From: Escherichia phage outra
Reading direction: 5' to 3' (one strand)
Length of the DNA stretch: 64,000 nt
Sequence record: MN850645.1
Under the pieces are notes generated by a model. That model made no database searches, was not told the DNA's origin, and was given only the letters and a program-made list of their open reading frames with translations. Positions 19,341 through 37,543 of this stretch are shown piece by piece; the first letter of the stretch is position 1; each line of letters begins with the position of its first letter. A program made the position numbers and the translations under genes.

Positions 19341-19363
19341 CGTGTTTTTATGGGTGTGCGTAT

Positions 19364-19472
19364 GATAATCATTTTCATTTGTAAATGAGAATCATTATCA
19401 TTTAAGTATGTAAGTGATAATCATTCTCAGTAAGAGAATGAGAATCATTAGCAAATGAGAATTTTCTCATTT
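19364..19472. promoter_or_regulatory. cluster of Fur-box-like palindromes (AATGAGAATCATTATCA etc.)
   Basis: 19384-19400 matches 14/15 of the E. coli Fur consensus core ATGATAATCATTATC; further GATAATCATTCTC-type palindromes at 19416-19472. Confidence 0.5.
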
Positions 19473-28702: not shown

Positions 28703-29092
28703 ATGCGCAACCTGGTTTCTGTTTCTAACGTTGAAAAATTTCAATCCTTGCAGGGTATCGTTAACAACGTAGCGCCTTTTCTAGTCAATGGCTTGATTGC
28801 AAAGATGAAAAATAAACATCATGCAGCATGGTCTGCTTACTGCTTTGATAATGATGAAAAAGCGGCTGAAATGATGTTAAATATGCTGTTAGATAGTGTA
28901 GAATCATCTTTACCGGAAAACATCGCAGAAGAGATCACCTATCGTTATAATATGGCGATCACCTATCAGGAGGTTGCGCAATTCAATATGATGGACGATG
29001 ACGAACAACAGGATCAGGAAATGTTTTGGGAATATGCAGATCGTCAATCGGCTTTTGATGAAAAGTTAGCGATGTATTATAACGAATATTAA
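28703..29092 (+). CDS. hypothetical acidic protein (129 aa)
   Basis: AAAGG SD; downstream of cassette. Confidence 0.55.
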   Translation: MRNLVSVSNVEKFQSLQGIVNNVAPFLVNGLIAKMKNKHHAAWSAYCFDNDEKAAEMMLNMLLDSVESSLPENIAEEITYRYNMAITYQEVAQFNMMDDDEQQDQEMFWEYADRQSAFDEKLAMYYNEY

Positions 29093-29108
29093 TACACGGT
29101 AAAAGAAA

Positions 29109-29133
29109 GGGGCGCACTAAGCGCCCTTTTTTG
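29109..29133 (+). terminator. rho-independent terminator
   Basis: GGGGCGC-ACTA-AGCGCCC stem-loop followed by TTTTTTG. Confidence 0.7.
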
Positions 29134-29477
29134 TATTCTTTTTCACGATGGAAGTAACACGTAAAGAATAAACGTAAGAGGTGGCGTAAAACAGCCTAAA
29201 ACCGATTATAACCGCTTAAACAAGGTAGTAATGACTAATCACCTTGCCAGGATGAAAAAGCTGTTATAAAGCTATCTAGAGCGTTTAAAGCACATAGGAA
29301 ATAATTTGCTTTTTATCTTGCCTTTTATCCTGCTTTTGATTATTATTATGGAACGGGCGGCACCTGGGGACAGGGGAAGATAATCACCGGAAGATCCCGC
29401 TATATATTAATAGCTAATACCTATCAAACAACAAAACATCAAAGGAATAAACTATCAAATCTTTACAATCCTACCTA

Positions 29478-29537
29478 TTGACACAGGATCACCCTTATAC
29501 TAATATGTATCCCGTAGGGCGGGAAATGGTTTCCCGC
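29478..29537 (+). promoter_or_regulatory. sigma70-like promoter plus type-A leader hairpin
   Basis: -35 TTGACA 29478-83, 17-bp spacer, -10 TAATAT 29501-06, hairpin GCGGGAAA-TGG-TTTCCCGC 29519-37. Confidence 0.65.
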
Positions 29538-29556
29538 TTGATATAGGAATCATACC

Positions 29557-29790
29557 ATGATCGAACAAATTAAAAGCACTACACCAAATGTTAACGGCAA
29601 TGTTTCACACTTTATCGGTGATAATGAAAGGGGCACACCATACGCCGCCGTAACCGTGCAACCTAACGGGGATTATTGGTTTACCGTGTACGGATCATAC
29701 TCTTTCGGACGCCCGGCACATGATAAGATCTTGCAAGCGGTTAAACCTGCGGGGAAGAATATCACAGTAGAAAAATTCTATGAAAAATAA
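29557..29790 (+). CDS. hypothetical protein (77 aa)
   Basis: ORF downstream of cassette. Confidence 0.55.
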   Translation: MIEQIKSTTPNVNGNVSHFIGDNERGTPYAAVTVQPNGDYWFTVYGSYSFGRPAHDKILQAVKPAGKNITVEKFYEK

Positions 29791-29865
29791 CTTGCTTTAT
29801 AGCCTCTGTTAATTTATAGTTATCGTGTAGGGCAAACAATTTTAAACGGTAAACGAGGAATCACC

Positions 29866-30249
29866 ATGAGCAATATCATCAACCTGGCAGCGACTGTAAA
29901 CGGTAAAGATTTTAACGGCGCTGTAGATCATGATCCTATGTGGTGCTTATCAGTGTTTAAAGGTGACTTGGTTGAAGTTAGAACAACCGAAGGTTATAGC
30001 GACGATTATAAATGCGAGATTCATTTACACAACTGGTACACGGGTAAAACTTATGCGCTGAATCATGCGTTTATCGGCAAGGTTGAATATAGGGAAATGA
30101 TCGACGAAGAAACGGGGCAAGATTTTAGCGATTATGTTTATATTCGTTCCGAGACATTAGCCGAACGTTTGATCGAGAAAATGAAAGCAAAAAATAAAAT
30201 TAATTTAGCTCATTGGATTGATATAACAAACGATCCTGCTTATCAGTAA
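29866..30249 (+). CDS. hypothetical protein (127 aa)
   Basis: GAGGAA SD. Confidence 0.55.
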   Translation: MSNIINLAATVNGKDFNGAVDHDPMWCLSVFKGDLVEVRTTEGYSDDYKCEIHLHNWYTGKTYALNHAFIGKVEYREMIDEETGQDFSDYVYIRSETLAERLIEKMKAKNKINLAHWIDITNDPAYQ

Positions 30250-30263
30250 ATAACATTTCAAAC

Positions 30264-30292
30264 AAGGGCGCTTATTGCGCCCTTTCTTTTTA
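30264..30292 (+). terminator. rho-independent terminator (end of island)
   Basis: AGGGCGC-TTATT-GCGCCCT stem-loop followed by TTCTTTTT. Confidence 0.7.
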
Positions 30293-30496
30293 CCTAAATA
30301 AAGATGATAGCTTTTACCTATCAAAAACGTTCACCGAAAAAAGTGAATAGATCGCGGTATCGAGCTAATCAGGGAGCAGATGAACAACCATACCATGAAG
30401 ATCATAAGGCGCTTACAACGGCTTTTAGACCGCTTATTTTTAATTTCTTCATGCAACTATCTGGCAAAAACAGCCTTTTTCTTGTCTTTCCTCTTA

Positions 30497-30570
30497 AATG
30501 ATAATCATTCTTATTTATAGCTGATTATTTATGCAATAAACTGCATAATGCAATAATGATAATCATTCTT
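30497..30570. promoter_or_regulatory. two Fur-box-like sites (AAATGATAATCATTCTTA; AATAATGATAATCATTCTT)
   Basis: GATAATCATT core shared with Fur consensus. Confidence 0.45.
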
Positions 30571-31424
30571 AACTTATGACCATCTAACCTATAAAATAAT
30601 AAGCTATCTAACTAAATTAAAACTAATTATCTCACCTTTATTTATAACTTACTGTTACTATCTCATTGATAACCTTATATTAAACAACAATAACTAATAT
30701 AAATCATTACTAAGCTAAATATAATCTATCTAACCTTTAAAACTATAACTATAATCTATCGAATTGTTGCACAAAGTAACTATTAAATTGTTAGTAACAT
30801 TGCTAAATAATTAATATCCTATCTATTTATGATCTAATCTTTACCTTCCTATTTATTACCTAAATAACCATTTCATATAGTAATTATTTCATACAATAAC
30901 TATAACAAGAAACATAATTCGCAAGCGTATCATTAGCAGCCTATGCCGGACACATAGGCGGCTAATAATAACGCAACTACACACCCCACATAATAACCAT
31001 CACCGATAGTTATTATTTGTGCTTATGTAGCTTGCAACAATTGCAAGCGCAACAATATACTAAGGTATATTGTATCCCTTACATTGTTGCGGTGCGTTAT
31101 TATTAGCTAATGTTTAGAACATTGGCTATAATATAAGCTGCATATAATAAGCTATTCAATAATAAACATCGTGAATAATGACATTGATGATCATAATGCG
31201 CCACCCTCCAGGGGGCGCTATGTGAACACAAAGAAATCTTTCTTATCAAGAAAATATTATCACTATTGCGCAAAATTATTTACATCTGAATAGATGATTT
31301 TTCATACTATTATTGTTATTTGTTGAGCATAGTTATAGCCTATTTGTTGAGCCTACTTTCTTAAAAGCGCAATAAATCAGAATTATCTTGATTTTTAGTG
31401 CGTTTTATAGTATAGAAAATATGC

Positions 31425-31443
31425 AAATGATAATCATTATCAG
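31425..31443. promoter_or_regulatory. near-consensus Fur box (AATGATAATCATTATC)
   Basis: 16 contiguous bases identical to positions 4-19 of E. coli Fur consensus GATAATGATAATCATTATC. Confidence 0.55.
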
Positions 31444-31607
31444 CTATCTTCCACGGGTAGCACTATTTCACGCCAGATCATTTCATTTGGCAAGGTGTAT
31501 ATAGATGTTTAGACTTGCCAAGTTATTGATTTACTTAGAATTTATCTATTTTGTTGTGAGTAGTACCTTTCTTGCTTAGAAAATAATCAAAAGTCTTATA
31601 AGTCATT

Positions 31608-31640
31608 GAATGATAATACAAATGATAATTATTCTCATTG
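31608..31640. promoter_or_regulatory. Fur-box-like tandem site (TGAATGATAATACAAATGATAATTATTCTCATTG)
   Basis: repeated GATAAT hexamers and palindromic half-sites. Confidence 0.4.
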
Positions 31641-31998
31641 ATATTTGAGGGGGACGGTCGGCAGAAATCGGGGGGTGCTGAAAATCGCGTTAAGCACCTC
31701 TCGCAAGCGAGCAGTATTTTGCGGCAAGTTATTGATATTATTGGCTTTACGCTTATGAAAAGGGGGTGTGTCGAAATAAAGCGGGTATACCGGAAAATTT
31801 TTGTGGCATAGATATTTATTTGTCTATATTATGTACAAAGGGGTGTGTTAAAAATATTAGGTATATATAGAATAATTGATAGGGAAATCCTATACTAATC
31901 CCTCCATTAATGATGTTTCTATGTTACTGTTCTTGTAATAGATGAAAAGACGCTGTATGATGTGTGGCATGAAACGTAAACTTATAAAGGAGTCTGAT

Positions 31999-32376
31999 AT
32001 GTGTGTTCCTCTTAGCAGTCCACTGCTGTTAGAATTTTATAAAGCATGGATGCAAGATCATTCCTCAATGCATCGTGAGAATGTTGGTTTGTGTATTTGC
32101 CTTATGGATTATCTGGCAACCACTATGTCAAAGAAAAAACCTACGCGAGAAGATATAGAACATTTCAAGATGGTTCGTAGTAAAACGCTGGAAGAGATGA
32201 AATTGCAATTCACGTGTGCTGGGCTATCCTCCTTCCTGCCCTTTAATGATGATCTTCTGTGTTATGAAGATGAAGGTAAGAAACATTCTTGCCATACTAA
32301 CCCAGAGAGATTGCAGTGGGTGAAAGATCGTATTGCCGATTCGTGTTTGGTGTTAGGGGGTGACAATGAAAAGTAA
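31999..32376 (+). CDS. paralogue-family protein A1 (Cys/His-rich, 125 aa)
   Basis: AAGGAG SD before ATG 31999; shares S..LL.FY..W, GLC.CL.DY, QFTCAGL..LPFN, CHTN..RLQWV..RI.D with three downstream paralogues. Confidence 0.6.
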   Translation: MCVPLSSPLLLEFYKAWMQDHSSMHRENVGLCICLMDYLATTMSKKKPTREDIEHFKMVRSKTLEEMKLQFTCAGLSSFLPFNDDLLCYEDEGKKHSCHTNPERLQWVKDRIADSCLVLGGDNEK

Positions 32377-32734
32377 TATTCCGTTGAGTAGTGCAGCTTT
32401 AATACGATTCTATAAAGCATGGATTGCCAACCATCCGGCAATGAATCGCACAACGAGTGGCTTGTGTGGTTGTCTGGTAGATTATGTAGATGATTTTGTT
32501 GGTGAGGTAACTAGAGAAGAAGATAAAAGATGGCGTGATCGTTTGTTGGATAGTTTGAAATACGAAATGAGGAAACAATTTACATGTGCAGGACTGGACT
32601 ACAATCTTCCGTTCAATGCAGATTGCATGGATTACCTTTCAGAATGTATAGACTTGGCGTGTCATACCAACACGTTACGTCTTCAATGGGTGAAAAACAG
32701 AATCGAAGATGCAAATAATGCTTGCATTGAATAG
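32360..32734 (+). CDS. paralogue-family protein A2 (124 aa)
   Basis: same conserved blocks as A1. Confidence 0.6.
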   Translation: MTMKSNIPLSSAALIRFYKAWIANHPAMNRTTSGLCGCLVDYVDDFVGEVTREEDKRWRDRLLDSLKYEMRKQFTCAGLDYNLPFNADCMDYLSECIDLACHTNTLRLQWVKNRIEDANNACIE

Positions 32735-32804
32735 AAATGCCTGTACACTGTGTTCCATAAGATATGCAATATCGCGCATAACAAACTACTAATGAGAGGT
32801 GTAA

Positions 32805-33263
32805 ATGAAAACTGTATCTTTGTATCTTGCTAACACGGAGCGTGTACATAATCTTGTAAAAGAATGTGGTGTGAGTGTTCAATTTAACACAGGAAAGCCT
32901 TCTGTGGTGATAGGCAGTGAGATGTGTGTTATTGATTTCATCAATGAATATTTTCGTGGGAAGCCTATTGCTCGTCACTTCATCCGAGAAATGCGAGATG
33001 TACAACAGGATTATGAATTCTACCCAGAAATTTGTGAACGCTATGAAACTATTCTTAGTTCTGTAGAAGATCCAGATACCAGTGAAACAGGTGCTTCCCA
33101 CTTACTGTGGATGTTGAATGAAATTCAGGATGGGTGTAATGGTATGTCTGAAACCAAACGCCATCGTTGGCTAGGTTATATTCAGGGTGTTATGGTTATG
33201 AAAAACCTTATTACAGTGAATGACGAACGTAATGCTACACGCCCCGTCTTTAATGGAGCATAA
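32805..33263 (+). CDS. hypothetical protein (152 aa)
   Basis: GAGAGG SD. Confidence 0.55.
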   Translation: MKTVSLYLANTERVHNLVKECGVSVQFNTGKPSVVIGSEMCVIDFINEYFRGKPIARHFIREMRDVQQDYEFYPEICERYETILSSVEDPDTSETGASHLLWMLNEIQDGCNGMSETKRHRWLGYIQGVMVMKNLITVNDERNATRPVFNGA

Positions 33264-33264
33264 C

Positions 33265-33480
33265 ATGAAAAGGATTCAGGTGTGTATTGAAAATAATTGT
33301 GGTTATCTGGGGTTGACACACGTTGCTTTCCCTCTTATATTAGATGCTGATATCGCTTACAGCGGAGTTGCTTATGTGTCATTCAAGACAATGAGCCAAG
33401 TACCTGGCTGGAAGTGGGAAGTAGTTGATGTTGTTGAAGGAGAAGATTATGTTTTCCTTCCACACGAATATACTGTTTAA
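33265..33480 (+). CDS. hypothetical protein (71 aa)
   Basis: start moved to ATG 33265. Confidence 0.45.
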   Translation: MKRIQVCIENNCGYLGLTHVAFPLILDADIAYSGVAYVSFKTMSQVPGWKWEVVDVVEGEDYVFLPHEYTV

Positions 33481-33495
33481 AGAGAGGAAAAGAAG

Positions 33496-33672
33496 ATGGA
33501 TAAACAAACTACTGTGTACTTAGTAACAAAGAATACCCCAGGCTGGAGCCAATGCAGCACTGTCCCTTACAAGATCTGTGCAACATTAGAACTAGCACAA
33601 CGTGCAGAAGCAGAAGTGAATGCCATGCAATACAGCTATGGTGAAATCATTCCTTTTACTCTTGAACAATAA
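33496..33672 (+). CDS. hypothetical small protein (58 aa)
   Basis: hand-translated; GAGAGGAAAAG SD. Confidence 0.4.
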   Translation: MDKQTTVYLVTKNTPGWSQCSTVPYKICATLELAQRAEAEVNAMQYSYGEIIPFTLEQ

Positions 33673-33683
33673 GGAGTTGTGTA

Positions 33684-34136
33684 ATGTTTGAAATTGGTAA
33701 AGTGTATCGTTTTAAAAACCCATCTTATATCCGTAAGTTTGCTAACATGTCTGAGTGCAATAGCAGGATTGCTTCTTTTTTAGGTGATTCCTATTTTCGT
33801 GTATTAGATGTGGATGATTGGTATGGTGTCACTGCTTTGCAATCCTTAGCAGGAGAACAAGAAATTATCGCTCAAAATGAAGGAGACTTTCTTCAGTGTT
33901 ACACGTTGCTTGCAAAAAGTGAGTTTGAGTATTTTGTAGAAGTCTTAGAGGAAGCACCAAAAAGTAAACACGAAGAGAAATACCTGCTTGTAGTGGATGG
34001 AGTTCCGATCATGGAAACCATCTCCCGTGAGGAAGTTGAAAAAGAGGCGAAACGTTACAAGCTGGATCGTACACAGAGTGTAGTTGAAGTCTATTCTCTT
34101 GTTGGTGTTGCAGATATTAGTGTGAACATCGTATAA
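33684..34136 (+). CDS. hypothetical protein (150 aa)
   Basis: AAGGAG SD. Confidence 0.55.
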   Translation: MFEIGKVYRFKNPSYIRKFANMSECNSRIASFLGDSYFRVLDVDDWYGVTALQSLAGEQEIIAQNEGDFLQCYTLLAKSEFEYFVEVLEEAPKSKHEEKYLLVVDGVPIMETISREEVEKEAKRYKLDRTQSVVEVYSLVGVADISVNIV

Positions 34137-34139
34137 TAT

Positions 34140-34352
34140 ATGTGTAATGACAGATACATTCTTCGTGTATCTGATAAGTCTCCTATGTTTGACTGGCGGG
34201 GCTGGTGGCTACTAGCTCCGATGCAAGGTCTGACAGACGTGGAAAAGGAGGCTTATGTGTATACAAAAGAAGAGATAGAAGATAGTCTTTATTTGACAGA
34301 TAACATTAAGAATGGTATCTTTGAGTGTAAATTGAAAGGAGAGGAAGAATGA
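34140..34352 (+). CDS. hypothetical protein (70 aa)
   Basis: ORF in operon. Confidence 0.45.
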   Translation: MCNDRYILRVSDKSPMFDWRGWWLLAPMQGLTDVEKEAYVYTKEEIEDSLYLTDNIKNGIFECKLKGEEE

Positions 34353-34648
34353 CTGTTACAGAAAAACTGCGTTGTATTGCAAAGCAAAGTGGAGAAGGTT
34401 TATGGTTTCCTATTGAGGAAATTATTCAGGACTGTTATGATCAGGCTAAGACTGGCAAATATTCCAAAGCATTTAAACCATCTGTTTTCGGTTTGGATGA
34501 CTATCCAAAAAATGAACAAGCAAAGAAACGACAAGTTGATTTGATTGATCTTGCTATGGAAGCACTACGAGAGCATGGACTTAGTAAGGTGTATGCTTTA
34601 AACACCAAAGAGGGCTTTGTAGATTCAGTGATCGTAGACTGGTATTAA
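34349..34648 (+). CDS. hypothetical protein (99 aa)
   Basis: 4-nt overlap; GGAGAGGAAG SD. Confidence 0.5.
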   Translation: MTVTEKLRCIAKQSGEGLWFPIEEIIQDCYDQAKTGKYSKAFKPSVFGLDDYPKNEQAKKRQVDLIDLAMEALREHGLSKVYALNTKEGFVDSVIVDWY

Positions 34649-34657
34649 GGAGAAGTC

Positions 34658-35026
34658 ATGCAAGAGAATACTAAAGTGTGTAGCATGAAAAGCAGCCCCT
34701 ATTTGCTACAATTTTATGCGTGGTGGTTAGAACAAGAAGATACAAACTTTAGCAAAAAGCATTATGGTCTTTGCACGTGTCTTGTAGACTTCTTATACAA
34801 TATTGCTTGGATAAAAGATGTTGAGAATGTAGCAAACCTCCAATCCTCTGTACGAGAGGAAATGAAGGAACAATTTAAGAAAGCGGGTTTGAACCATTTA
34901 CATCCGTTTAATACGGATTTCTCGCACTACTTTACGGAAACAGAGTTAGGCATTGCACACCTTAATAAAGAACGTGTACAATGGGTGATTGATCGTATTC
35001 GTGATATGGAGGAATACAATGGTTAA
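34658..35026 (+). CDS. paralogue-family protein A3 (122 aa)
   Basis: YLLQFYAWW, GLCTCLVDF, HPFN, RVQWVIDRIRD blocks. Confidence 0.6.
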   Translation: MQENTKVCSMKSSPYLLQFYAWWLEQEDTNFSKKHYGLCTCLVDFLYNIAWIKDVENVANLQSSVREEMKEQFKKAGLNHLHPFNTDFSHYFTETELGIAHLNKERVQWVIDRIRDMEEYNG

Positions 35027-35237
35027 GTTTAAAACTTTCTGTGCAATCACTGTTTGTCTTATTCTTGCATACGTGTTATTCTCTGGTATCGTTCGTTTAG
35101 GTGAGTATATGGCAAGAGAAGCTCGTGAAAGTGCAGCTAAAAAAGAACAGTGTATTGTGTTCAAGCATCAAAGAGATGCTGAAAAGTTTCTCGCACTTGA
35201 TTGCAATCGTTATGTATCTTATCAAATGTATGAGTAA
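35019..35237 (+). CDS. small membrane-anchored protein (72 aa), paralogue of 39728-39952
   Basis: start moved to ATG 35019 with GGAGGA SD; shares KE.CI..KH...AE.FL...CN.Y motif. Confidence 0.5.
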   Translation: MVKFKTFCAITVCLILAYVLFSGIVRLGEYMAREARESAAKKEQCIVFKHQRDAEKFLALDCNRYVSYQMYE

Positions 35238-35246
35238 GGAGGGTTT

Positions 35247-35471
35247 ATGGTAAAACGTCTGGAATGGGATGCGTGTACTGCTCACGCTTGTCACTGTGAT
35301 ATTGTTGAAGATCCTAATGGAGAAATGGTGTATTATGAAGATTACGAAGCATTGCATAATGCTGTGATCGCTTTACTGGATGATATTAGCTCACGCTATC
35401 CAGGACAACAGTTTACGTGTCCACATATTCAACTGTTAGCCAAACTTACGGAGTATCCAAGTGTTCCATAA
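35247..35471 (+). CDS. hypothetical Cys/His protein (74 aa), shares CDIV.DP.G motif with 40604-40876
   Basis: AAGGAGGG SD. Confidence 0.5.
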   Translation: MVKRLEWDACTAHACHCDIVEDPNGEMVYYEDYEALHNAVIALLDDISSRYPGQQFTCPHIQLLAKLTEYPSVP

Positions 35472-35472
35472 T

Positions 35473-35640
35473 ATGGGTGTCCCTGAACAACTCCTCTTTA
35501 TTGTAGGACTAGTAGGCTTATTGGCGGCTGGCGCTAAAGCCGCTTCTCACACGCATCACATAATGTTAAGATTTCTATTCCTGCTCCCTTCTATCCTCGT
35601 GTTATTAGTCATACTGATCGATAATATTTTGCACAATTAA
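35473..35640 (+). CDS. hypothetical membrane protein (55 aa)
   Basis: hand-translated; no SD (TAATATG coupling). Confidence 0.3.
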   Translation: MGVPEQLLFIVGLVGLLAAGAKAASHTHHIMLRFLFLLPSILVLLVILIDNILHN

Positions 35641-35649
35641 GGAGAGGTT

Positions 35650-36234
35650 ATGAGTAAAATTATACCAAGCAGTTATGAATTATTGCAGTTTTATGTCTAT
35701 TATATAGACTGGGTTACTAGATCGAATGTTAAAGACAATGCGATGTTTAGTAAAAACATCTGTTTAACAGAAAGTATCTTCCGTTACTGGCACACAGGCA
35801 GAAAGTGTACACACAGTGAAGCTATGCGCATTGTAGGAGAATATCTGGAGCAATTGCAAAAAGCAGAGTTACCTGTCCTTCACCCATTCAACGAATCTAA
35901 AGAAGAATTAGAACAAGAGTGTAGAGAAGGTAAGTGCCATTTGAATGAAAAACGTATCGAATGGGTGAGGCAACGTTTAGCCGATACAGGAAAGCCTCCT
36001 AGTGACTCTGACTATACGTGGTATGATGTAGAGGGTTTAGTTCAAGGTTTTGAGGCTTGTGCTATAGATAATACCAACTTTGCCAAAGTTTTATGCGAGG
36101 CTTATGATCTGGCAGATAAAATCCGAAATCAAGGATGGAAACAAGAGCATAAAGAATCATATGAACGTCTTGACAAGATTTTCAAACAGATCTATTCTAA
36201 CCACAAAGAGATGTTCCAAATGGAGGATGTGTAA
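35650..36234 (+). CDS. paralogue-family protein A4 with C-terminal extension (194 aa)
   Basis: ELLQFYVYY, HPFN, CHLNEKRIEWVRQRLAD blocks; AAGGAGAGG SD. Confidence 0.6.
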   Translation: MSKIIPSSYELLQFYVYYIDWVTRSNVKDNAMFSKNICLTESIFRYWHTGRKCTHSEAMRIVGEYLEQLQKAELPVLHPFNESKEELEQECREGKCHLNEKRIEWVRQRLADTGKPPSDSDYTWYDVEGLVQGFEACAIDNTNFAKVLCEAYDLADKIRNQGWKQEHKESYERLDKIFKQIYSNHKEMFQMEDV

Positions 36235-36917
36235 TGAAAGAGATTATGTTTGAAGGTCATCGTTACGAAGTTCCAGACAATGCAAATTTCATGGCTCGTG
36301 ATATCACTGGAGATGTGTTCTGGTTTGAAGATGAACCTGTGTTTTCGAACAAACACTGGTTTTCACAACAATCTTCTTCGGAAAATATGACTTTTGGTTA
36401 TGTAGAACCTAAAGTACGTTGCAAAGCAGCTTCTTCTTTGGTAAAAATTTCCCAAGATGACCAAGAAAATACTCAAGATGTTGTTAGTGCGCTACTGAAG
36501 TACATTGCAGAACTTGAGAAGAAAATTAAAGAAGCAGAAACTAAGGTGGAAGCACGATCAGCAATCATCGAAGCTATGTCTGAACGTATTTTAGAACTAG
36601 AAGATTTGTGTGGAGAGGCTTATCAAGTGGTTGGTGCACTGGCTTGTGAAGCACAAATGTTTGAAACTTCAGAACAAGTTTCACATATGTTAGATAATTT
36701 GAGTGAATGTAAAATGATTCATGATGATGTGTTACCATTTTGTTGCAATGTTAACAAAACAGAGCAAACACAAGATTCAGAAACAGTTTATGTTCCGCTA
36801 ATGTGTGTTCCAGATCATCTAAAAGGTGTATTCTCTTGTAAATGGTCGCTGTTGAGCGTTACTAATTGTGGTGAAAACTATTCTGCTAACATTGAATTGC
36901 TAAAACACGTTAAATAA
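36234..36917 (+). CDS. hypothetical protein (227 aa)
   Basis: ATG overlaps upstream stop. Confidence 0.55.
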   Translation: MKEIMFEGHRYEVPDNANFMARDITGDVFWFEDEPVFSNKHWFSQQSSSENMTFGYVEPKVRCKAASSLVKISQDDQENTQDVVSALLKYIAELEKKIKEAETKVEARSAIIEAMSERILELEDLCGEAYQVVGALACEAQMFETSEQVSHMLDNLSECKMIHDDVLPFCCNVNKTEQTQDSETVYVPLMCVPDHLKGVFSCKWSLLSVTNCGENYSANIELLKHVK

Positions 36918-36927
36918 GGAGAGTAAG

Positions 36928-37332
36928 ATGTGGTCTGTTAAAATCAAATATAATGCACAGTATTATGGTGGACAACCTTATGAAGTTGTTATTTGTGACT
37001 GTATCTCTAAAGAAGTTGCACAGCTTTGTGGCACTGGTGTTAGTGAAGCTATGAACAAAATGCATAACTCGACTGTGCGTTACCTGGATCAAGATATTCC
37101 AGAAGATGTAAATGATTATGGTTACGAAATTATTTACAGTGAAGGTAAGAAGCTCTCTATTGAAGATGCACTTAAAGCACTACCTGCTATGTGCAATCCA
37201 ACACCAGAAGCAGTTAAAAAGATTTTACCAGAATCCAACCCCGATGAATATGCTGCTATGGTTGCTTCAGACATGTGGAATCTCTGTCGAGAAACTATGA
37301 TTAAAAATCTGGTGGAAATGGCGCATGAGTAA
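36928..37332 (+). CDS. hypothetical protein (134 aa)
   Basis: AAGGAGAG SD. Confidence 0.55.
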   Translation: MWSVKIKYNAQYYGGQPYEVVICDCISKEVAQLCGTGVSEAMNKMHNSTVRYLDQDIPEDVNDYGYEIIYSEGKKLSIEDALKALPAMCNPTPEAVKKILPESNPDEYAAMVASDMWNLCRETMIKNLVEMAHE

Positions 37333-37543
37333 AACGCACTTTATACATCCATTTGATCCAAAGAACAAGGCGGTTATACACCGCCGTTGGACTGAAACGC
37401 GCATTACAAAATGTCCTGTGCCAGCAGCAGAGGAATATAACAAAACATATAAAGCAGAATTTGTGGAGTACACCTTTGTGAATAACAAAGGGAAAGAGGT
37501 TTATGTTCCAGAATACTGCCTTTGGATAAAATGGGAGGAATAA
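37325..37543 (+). CDS. hypothetical protein (72 aa)
   Basis: overlapping start. Confidence 0.45.
   Translation: MSKTHFIHPFDPKNKAVIHRRWTETRITKCPVPAAEEYNKTYKAEFVEYTFVNNKGKEVYVPEYCLWIKWEE

What the first reader, a model, noticed from the sequence alone, without database searches (positions are those of the whole stretch)
31999..36234. Tandem family of four diverged Cys/His-rich paralogues
Products of 31999-32376, 32360-32734, 34658-35026 and 35650-36234 share ordered blocks: SxxLLxFYxxW, GLCxCLxD(Y/F), QFxxAGLxxxxPFN, and CHxNxxR(L/V)QWVxxRIxD. They are otherwise strongly diverged, and one carries a C-terminal extension. Rapidly diversifying tandem paralogues in a phage early region are typical of genes under host-driven selection, such as inhibitors of host proteins or defence systems. 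The conserved Cys/His positions suggest a small metal-binding fold.
Basis: seen in the sequence. Interest (0 to 1): 0.6.

Follow-up and report, generated by a model that had tools for sequence, protein, structure and literature searches.

The report
Uncharacterised early phage helical-domain gene family
Four diverged copies of a small, all-helical, phage-only protein domain of unknown function sit at the first-injected end of a phi92-like coliphage genome; the family is real, widespread and a good candidate for early host manipulation, but it is probably not a zinc finger and is not evolving fast.

Summary
The four ORFs are true homologues (pairwise phmmer E 1e-5 to 1e-29) and no fifth copy lies in the window. 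All four match PHROG 2510, a family of unknown function. None matches Pfam, NCBIfam, PADLOC or any PDB sequence.

Only one cysteine (C32) is family-wide. A structural zinc site is therefore unlikely.

Orthologues are under purifying selection (dN/dS 0.09-0.28, similar to neighbouring genes). What changes is copy number:
- phi92: 2 copies
- JohannJBalmer: 3, one a copy1/copy2 recombinant
- this phage: 4
- phiWec186: 9

Copies 1 and 2 are the first genes after the terminal repeat. Relatives sit in the N4-like early region and in the P22-like PL operon. Overlapping gene pairs and linker-less two-domain fusions recur.

Best guess, at low confidence: dispensable early host-interaction modules that work in pairs through a conserved Cys/Tyr/Arg site.

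The parts
31999..32376 (+). Copy 1, 125 aa. Family domain with C32, C34, C98 and H99. First gene after the terminal repeat. RBS AAGGAG at 31987-31992.
   Evidence: (phrog_2510, E 7e-22); AF2 model of this copy, pLDDT 95
32366..32734 (+). Overlaps copy 1 by 11 nt. Closest paralogue of copy 1 (46% identity).
   Evidence: (phrog_2510, E 9e-24)
34658..35026 (+). Copy 3, 122 aa, orthologue of phi92 gp006. Lacks Cys98.
   Evidence: (phrog_2510, E 2e-25)
35650..36009 (+). Copy 4, domain part (about residues 1-120), orthologue of phi92 gp010. The GLC motif is degenerate (NICLT). All other motifs are kept.
   Evidence: (phrog_27059, E 5e-140; phrog_2510, E 7e-17)
36010..36234 (+). C-terminal extension of copy 4 (about 75 aa), unrelated to the domain. 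Only weak PHROG matches of unknown function.
   Evidence: phrog_25020, E 0.002
31350..31692 (.). Context: homologue of the phi92 left direct terminal repeat. This is the physical genome end, about 300 bp upstream of copy 1.
   Evidence: phi92 1-565 aligns to window 31350-31912 at 96.8%
31913..32683 (.). 771-bp segment carrying copy 1 and most of copy 2. It is absent from phi92, which keeps only the last ~50 nt of copy 2.

Best explanation
SHOWN. The four genes belong to a widespread phage-only family (PHROG 2510/27059/6418) that has no Pfam entry. The domain is about 110 aa, acidic and all-helical (five helices). Each copy is a real gene kept by purifying selection. The family sits in early-expressed accessory regions of very different phages. 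Copy number changes by deletion and by unequal recombination between paralogues.

INFERRED, and this is the mechanism I commit to. These are dispensable early host-interaction modules made in the first minutes of infection. The working unit is a pair of domains, either a homo- or heterodimer or a fused two-domain protein. All members share one working site at one pole of the bundle, built from the invariant Cys32 in the first turn of helix 2, Tyr14 and Arg104, with Glu66, Gln70, Asn101 and usually His99. Their diverged surfaces give each paralogue a different partner or substrate in the host, most plausibly components of host defence or host takeover. Carrying several diverged copies widens the range of hosts or host variants the phage can handle.
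For: Homology and gene reality:
- Pairwise E 1e-5 to 1e-29.
- dN/dS 0.09-0.28.
- Good RBSs.

Family size: 773 clusters with E<=1e-3 and 226 of 50,697 phage records.

Conserved site:
- Y14, C32, P81, F82 and R104 are invariant in A2.
- S7, Q70 and N101 are >=90%; E66 is 90%.
- C32 is almost never replaced by Ala, Ser or Val.
- The helix-2 start at residue 31 places C32 in the first helical turn.

Early location:
- First genes after the DTR.
- Between the N4 Gp1/Gp2 homologues and RNAPII in N4-like phages.
- In the P22-like PL operon between abc2 and int.

Dispensability and copy-number flux:
- phi92 has 2 copies.
- JohannJBalmer has 3, including a copy1/copy2 chimera joined inside RLQWVKDRI.
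- This phage has 4.
- phiWec186 has 9.

Pairing:
- The copy1/copy2 overlap of 11 nt recurs in the phiWec186 leading triplet and in an unrelated N4-like phage.
- 9 of 147 representative proteins are linker-less two-domain fusions.
- In prophages the domain is cargo in mosaic proteins of the exo-xis-type region. Ea22 proteins there are known to carry portable, dimeric, acidic C-terminal domains (PMC10834534).

The family is acidic (median pI 5.3), which argues against DNA binding.
Against: - There is no experimental or annotation evidence of function anywhere. Every record says 'hypothetical', and I found no paper on the family.
- I could not read model coordinates. The clustering of the conserved polar residues at one pole is inferred from helix periodicity and loop topology, not observed.
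- Several conserved polar residues (S7, N83, N101) sit at helix N-cap positions and may be purely structural.
- Copy 4 lacks the canonical Cys32 yet is under purifying selection (dN/dS 0.10).
- His99 is Tyr or Arg in both halves of some fusions.
- Early timing is inferred from position and synteny, not from transcript data.
- The promoter scan is no better than chance.
- Pairing rests on gene overlap and fusions only.
Confidence: 0.4

Rival explanations
1. The domain is a small thiol-dependent enzyme or a small-molecule binder (a 'sponge') that acts on a conserved metabolite, nucleotide signal or nucleic acid, not on host proteins. The paralogues would differ in substrate.
For: Polar residues (Y14, C32, R104, N101, Q70, E66) are invariant across phages of alpha-, beta- and gamma-proteobacteria. 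That pattern suits a chemical site better than a protein-protein interface with fast-changing partners. The Cys lies in the first turn of a helix. Oligomeric or paired architecture is typical of known sponges.
Confidence: 0.2
2. One reading: a small zinc- or other metal-binding fold that uses the conserved Cys/His positions. The site could lie within a monomer (C32, C34, C98, H99) or bridge a dimer (C32 and H99 from each subunit).
For: Copies 1 and 2 carry all four candidate ligands. C32+C98+H99 co-occur in 57 of 140 domains. Pairing and fusions would allow an interfacial site. A catalytic three-ligand site (Cys/His/Glu) cannot be excluded.
Against: Only C32 is family-wide. C34 is Asn in 64%, C98 is present in 57%, and H99 in 79%, replaced by Tyr, Arg or Ser. 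The full CCCH set occurs in 9 of 140. AF2 folds the domain confidently as a helical bundle with an ordinary hydrophobic core and no knuckle or hairpin. No Pfam zinc-finger match. Adjacent C98-H99 is an unusual ligand pair.
Confidence: 0.1
3. The proteins regulate the phage's own programme instead of countering the host. They would act like exo-xis region genes that bias developmental decisions, or as early transcription or replication modulators.
For: In temperate relatives the domain lies in the exo-xis/'ea'-type region, next to a gene with a faint Ead_Ea22 Pfam hit and a DUF551 gene. Ea22 from that region affects the lysis-lysogeny choice (PMC10834534, PMC7093339).
Against: The family is abundant in strictly lytic phages: phi92-like, N4-like, Felix O1-like (Av-05) and other lytic coliphage records. 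Copy number ranges from 2 to 9 among close relatives, which is unlike a core regulator. The proteins are acidic and show no HTH.
Confidence: 0.15
4. The copies are decaying or functionless duplicates, or the shared blocks arise by chance.
For: phi92 does without copies 1 and 2.
Against: Pairwise E down to 1e-29. dN/dS 0.09-0.28 with intact ORFs in all genomes examined. 773 related clusters.
Confidence: 0.02

Closest known systems
PHROG families 2510, 27059 and 6418 (all 'unknown function')
   Same: All four proteins match phrog_2510 (E 7e-17 to 2e-25). Copy 4 matches phrog_27059 end to end (E 5e-140). The family is therefore already catalogued.
   Different: The catalogue gives no function, fold, motif or context. 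Pfam and NCBIfam have no model.
Portable C-terminal domains of mosaic exo-xis region proteins of lambdoid/P22-like phages (Ea22 type; PMC10834534)
   Same: In enterobacterial prophage contigs the domain is one module of 250-400 aa mosaic proteins. These lie in the PL operon between abc2 and int, next to a gene with a faint Ead_Ea22 hit and a DUF551 gene. It is also fused to DUF551 in Felix O1-like phage Av-05. Like Ea22 CTDs it is small, acidic and probably dimeric.
   Different: The lambda Ea22 CTD has a mixed alpha-beta fold; this domain is all-helical. The window proteins have no Ead_Ea22 or DUF551 match. Here the domain stands alone in a lytic phage.
Leading-end early anti-host genes of phages with fixed ends (T7 gp0.3 Ocr, T5 pre-early genes), and terminal multigene families of large DNA viruses (ASFV MGF, poxvirus terminal families). 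From general knowledge; analogy only.
   Same: Located at the first-entering genome end. Dispensable, small and acidic. Present as diverged paralogue arrays whose number differs between close strains.
   Different: No sequence or structural similarity to any of them. No functional data. Membership is not claimed.
Phage immune-signal sponges (Acb2, Tad1/2 and others; 10.1101/2025.07.12.664507)
   Same: Small early proteins that work as oligomers with a conserved ligand pocket.

Membership tests
PHROG 2510 (unknown function) | Significant match to the family profile HMM over most of the domain | tested here: met
   E 7e-22, 9e-24, 2e-25 and 7e-17 for copies 1-4. Copy 4 matches phrog_27059 best, E 5e-140.
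Structural zinc-binding fold (zinc finger / zinc ribbon / treble clef) | Three to four Cys/His ligands conserved across the family at fixed spacing | tested here: not met
   C32 98-100%, C34 16%, C98 57%, H99 79%. The CCCH state occurs in 9 of 140 domains.
Structural zinc-binding fold (zinc finger / zinc ribbon / treble clef) | Knuckle or beta-hairpin ligand-bearing elements; little hydrophobic core without the metal | tested here: not met
   The AF2 model is five helices with a conserved hydrophobic core (L10, F13, W17, L31, F71, L76, F82, W107, V108), pLDDT 95 without metal.
Structural zinc-binding fold (zinc finger / zinc ribbon / treble clef) | Stoichiometric bound metal | not testable with these tools
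   Needs ICP-MS or a PAR assay on purified protein.
Ead/Ea22 family (Pfam PF13935) and DUF551 (PF04448) | Pfam profile match above the gathering score | tested here: not met
   No Pfam hit for the four window proteins at E<=1. DUF551 is found only as a fusion partner in P0135/Av-05. Ead_Ea22 appears only as a faint hit on a neighbouring prophage gene.
Known anti-defence protein families represented in Pfam, PDB and PHROG annotations (Ocr, ArdA, Acb2, Tad1/2, Lar and others) | Sequence or fold similarity to a characterised member | tested here: not met
Known anti-defence protein families represented in Pfam, PDB and PHROG annotations (Ocr, ArdA, Acb2, Tad1/2, Lar and others) | Demonstrated relief of a defence system | not testable with these tools
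   Needs plating assays on defence-system strains.
HEPN RNase domain (considered because of the H-x-N-x-x-R motif at a helix start) | R-x4-6-H motif at the start of the last helix of a four-helix bundle; similarity to HEPN profiles or structures | tested here: not met
Erv/ALR sulfhydryl oxidase (considered because it is a five-helix, Cys-containing viral domain) | CxxC redox pair and similarity to the Evr1_Alr profile or structure | tested here: not met
Anti-phage defence system components (PADLOC-DB) | Match to a PADLOC profile | tested here: not met
   No hits for the four copies or for the fusions. The only hit is a chance-level one (E 0.02) on one distant member.

The most novel reading that the evidence does not exclude
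The family is a new fold and a new mechanistic class of early phage effector. In this reading it is an obligate two-domain (hetero)dimer with a reactive first-turn cysteine that modifies or traps a conserved host molecule. It would be shared by N4-like, P22-like and phi92-like phages. Its copy number at the first-injected genome end (2 to 9 among Stephanstirmvirinae) would expand and contract by paralogue recombination as an 'accordion' response to host immunity.
Probability: 0.2. Interest if true: 0.75.

Novelty: new member of a known kind. Interest (0 to 1): 0.45.

Why it matters
Most early accessory genes of large lytic coliphages are unannotated, and they are where new anti-defence and host-takeover mechanisms keep turning up.

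This family has several features that make it a tractable target:
- It is widespread: at least 773 clusters at 50% identity, in phages of alpha-, beta- and gamma-proteobacteria.
- It has a confident predicted fold with no solved relative and no Pfam model.
- It has a clear candidate working site (Cys32, Tyr14, Arg104).
- It sits at the leading genome end or in early operons in four unrelated phage architectures.
- Natural variants with 2, 3, 4 and 9 copies already exist in culture collections, including BASEL phages, so a host-range or defence-panel comparison could be done directly.

As it stands the finding is a well-supported family of unknown function, not a new mechanism.

Tried and rejected
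1. Word-indexed homologue search with copy 3 alone gave one hit. With the 108-sequence alignment it gave 26 hits, all hypothetical and without Pfam domains.
3. The single genome-contig scan, run with mosaic protein P0120, matched only its unrelated N-terminal module in Enterobacter (L002). It was useless for the domain.
4. The afdb50 fold library was unavailable.
5. The DNA of the prophage-type domain has no match in 5,426 complete E. coli genomes in near or distant mode.
6. Literature searches (phi92/Phapecoctavirus, phrog_2510, BASEL Bas60-62, Ea22/DUF551, phage accessory genes) and a motif search in the supplements of PMC12373910 found nothing on this family. The Bas60 mentions in 10.1101/2025.07.12.664507 concern its use as a test phage only.
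8. P0018 (2115 aa, 15 short stretches) is a repetitive false positive and was excluded.
9. The sigma-70 promoter scan upstream of copy 1 is no better than shuffled sequence: 30 sites found against 27.8 expected. No promoter is claimed.
10. Rfam finds nothing in 29000-37500.
Full report
WHAT THE WINDOW IS. The region 31000-37000 is 95-97% identical to many Justusliebigvirus genomes. These are phi92-like, roughly 146-kb E. coli myophages of the subfamily Stephanstirmvirinae, such as ESCO32, EmilieFrey and Eryne. Every gene under the match is annotated 'hypothetical protein' or similar.

CHECK OF THE OBSERVATION. The four + strand ORFs exist as described.
- Their alignment shows 32-47% identity to copy 1 and 23 columns identical in all four.
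- Each protein, searched with phmmer against all 614 stop-to-stop ORFs of the window, finds only the other three, with E 1e-5 to 1e-29.
- An HMM of the four finds nothing else in the window; the next ORF has E 0.6.

The homology is therefore real and there are exactly four copies. Corrections follow.
- Copy 2 probably starts at ATG 32366. It has AGGGGG 5 nt upstream and is annotated that way in ESCO32, so it overlaps copy 1 by 11 nt.
- Copy 1 has AAGGAG 6 nt before ATG 31999.
- Copy 4 has a degenerate GLC block, and copy 3 lacks the Cys of 'CH'.
- Only copies 1 and 2 are adjacent.
- Only copies 1 and 2 are Cys-rich: 5.6-5.7% Cys against 2.5% in neighbouring genes.

THE FAMILY.
- All four match PHROG 2510. 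Copy 4 matches PHROG 27059 best. Both families have unknown function.
- Nothing matches in Pfam (108 members scanned), NCBIfam, PADLOC or PDB sequences, even with a 108-sequence profile.
- A profile search of 1.84 billion cluster representatives gives 773 proteins at E<=1e-3 and 161 at E<=1e-10. Most are 100-125 aa.
- tblastn finds the domain in 177-226 of 50,697 phage records: Escherichia, Salmonella, Klebsiella, Erwinia, Pectobacterium, Rhizobium and Achromobacter phages among others. All are annotated as hypothetical.
- Hits in 'bacterial' assemblies lie on phage-sized contigs of 151 kb and 77 kb.

CONSERVATION AND THE METAL HYPOTHESIS. Numbering follows copy 1.
- Invariant in A2: Y14, C32, P81, F82, R104.
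- At least 90%: S7, L10, F13, W17, G30, L31, Q70, F71, L76, N101, W107, V108.
- Lower: E66 90%, E92 84%, H99 79%, N83 73%, C98 57%, C34 16% (Asn 64%).
- The commonest state at positions 32/34/98/99 is C-N-C-H (41 of 140). C-C-C-H, as in copies 1 and 2, occurs in 9 of 140.

One invariant Cys in an all-helical domain with an ordinary hydrophobic core does not make a structural zinc site. A three-ligand or dimer-bridging site cannot be excluded by sequence. C32 is almost never replaced by Ala, Ser or Val, which argues for a role beyond packing. It lies in the first turn of helix 2, a position that favours a reactive thiolate (inference). From helix periodicity and loop topology, C32, E66/Q70 (C-terminal half of helix 3), the P81-F82-N83 loop and H99/N101/R104 (start of helix 5) should converge at one pole of the bundle. 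I could not read coordinates, so this too is inference. S7, N83 and N101 sit at helix N-cap positions and may be structural only. The family is acidic (median pI 5.3; the four copies 5.4-5.9).

GENOMIC POSITION.
- The annotated left direct terminal repeat of phi92 (1-343) aligns to window 31350-31692. Overall, phi92 1-565 aligns to window 31350-31912 at 96.8%. The window therefore spans the physical genome ends, and copies 1 and 2 are the first genes after the repeat.
- In N4-like phages (L010-L013) a family member lies between homologues of the N4 early proteins Gp1/Gp2 and the RNAPII gene.
- In a P22-like prophage (L003) the domain is part of a 402-aa mosaic protein in the PL operon. The gene order is N, cIII, arf, erf, abc2 and other genes, then a gene with a faint Ead_Ea22 hit, one small ORF, this gene, and further on a DUF551 gene and int.
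- In Felix O1-like Av-05 the domain is fused to DUF551.

Early expression is thus supported by position and synteny in four unrelated architectures, but not by transcript data. The promoter scan is at chance level.

EVOLUTION.
- Orthologue comparisons with five related genomes give pooled dN/dS of 0.28, 0.09, 0.12 and 0.10 for copies 1-4. Neighbouring genes range from 0.01 to 0.60. The genes are constrained and are not fast evolving.
- Copies 1 and 2 are each other's nearest relatives (46%). Copy 3 is nearer to P0015 (47%). Copy 4 is nearer to P0033 and to a prophage mosaic protein (39% and 34%) than to the other copies in its own genome. The set is therefore one old tandem duplication plus two ancient or separately acquired members.

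What does vary is copy number.
- phi92 lacks window 31913-32683 but retains the last ~50 nt of copy 2, which indicates a deletion.
- JohannJBalmer has a single leading gene. It is copy 1 up to RLQWVKDRI and then the tail of copy 2, an unequal crossover within the conserved motif.
- Eryne and EC_OE_11 carry an extra 156-nt ORF between copies 1 and 2.
- The Phapecoctavirus phiWec186 has nine members within 16 kb after its DTR-like sequence, starting with a triplet.

PAIRING. The 11-nt overlap of copies 1 and 2 recurs in the phiWec186 triplet and, independently, in an N4-like metagenomic phage (7001-7327 and 7317-7643 in L011). Nine of 147 representative proteins are head-to-tail two-domain fusions with no linker. 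Gene overlap together with such fusions suggests that the working unit is a pair of domains (inference). The literature on Ea22 describes mosaic proteins with portable, dimeric, acidic C-terminal domains in the same kind of region (PMC10834534). The lambda Ea22 CTD itself has a mixed alpha-beta fold and so is not homologous to this domain.

INTERPRETATION.
- High confidence: a genuine, widespread, phage-specific, functionally uncharacterised domain family. It is encoded in early accessory regions, is dispensable, and varies in copy number.
- Low confidence (about 0.4): paired early host-interaction modules that share one Cys/Tyr/Arg working site and differ in specificity through diverged surfaces.
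- Rivals: an enzyme or small-molecule sponge (0.2), a regulator of the phage's own programme (0.15), a metal-binding fold (0.1), functionless duplicates (0.02, effectively refuted).

NOVELTY. The genes and the family are already in databases as hypothetical proteins (PHROG 2510). Paralogue arrays of small early genes at a phage genome end are a known kind of thing. What is added here is the fold prediction without a solved relative, the conservation pattern that argues against a zinc finger, the leading-end and early-operon context across phage types, the recombination-driven copy-number series, and the pairing evidence. I rate it a new member of a known kind, with moderate interest as a candidate for experimental work.

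Noticed in passing
window 19361-19449 and 30497-30509, 30555-30567, 31426-31438, 31621-31633: The palindrome AATGATAATCATT occurs 12 times (<=1 mismatch, both strands) against 0.36 expected by chance. It forms two non-coding clusters. One is an array at 19361-19470. The other lies in the AT-rich genome-end region, including inside the terminal-repeat homologue. 31423-31441 (GCAAATGATAATCATTATC) matches 17 of 19 positions of the E. coli Fur-box consensus as I recall it. These could be host Fur sites, operators of a phage regulator, or early promoter elements.
   Followed up: partly
window 30285-31998: A 1.7-kb AT-rich stretch (GC 0.32) with no convincing gene. It follows a strong terminator-like hairpin at 30264-30284 and contains the homologue of the phi92 terminal repeat (31350-31692). 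The window is therefore a permuted assembly that runs across the physical genome ends.
   Followed up: partly
window 32805-33263: The gene after copy 2 has no nucleotide similarity to phi92 gp001 at the same position. Similarity resumes at 33496 with 98.1% identity. This looks like a cassette replacement at the leading end.
   Followed up: no
window 35247-35471: A 74-aa protein between copies 3 and 4 has a weak match to PHROG 3592, 'Lar-like restriction alleviation protein' (E 9e-4). It has no Pfam hit and very low dN/dS (0.01).
   Followed up: no
window 33684-34136: A 150-aa protein matches phrog_3710 (unknown function) and, weakly, the T4 GoF mRNA-metabolism modulator family (phrog_2980, E 9e-7). 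It is annotated goF in phage Eryne.
   Followed up: no
window 36234-37332: The two genes after copy 4 are the orthologues of phi92 gp011 and gp012, annotated there as 'potential Eaa-like proteins'. This is another link between this lytic-phage region and the 'ea' accessory region of temperate phages.
   Followed up: no
GenBank MG065639, MG065645, MG065656, MG065689, MG065650: Records labelled 'Campylobacter phage' (host C. jejuni) are 96.5% identical to this E. coli phage region across 6 kb. They may be mislabelled or contaminant genomes.
   Followed up: no
window 29866-30249 and 37325-37543: Two of the few neighbouring genes with Pfam matches: T4 Gp30.8-like (PF06019, E 4e-29) and DUF7202 (PF23832, E 6e-35).
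   Followed up: no
window ~14000 and ~44000: GC skew changes sign at about 14 kb and 44 kb, marking switches of coding strand. The finding lies inside the 30-kb + strand block.
   Followed up: no
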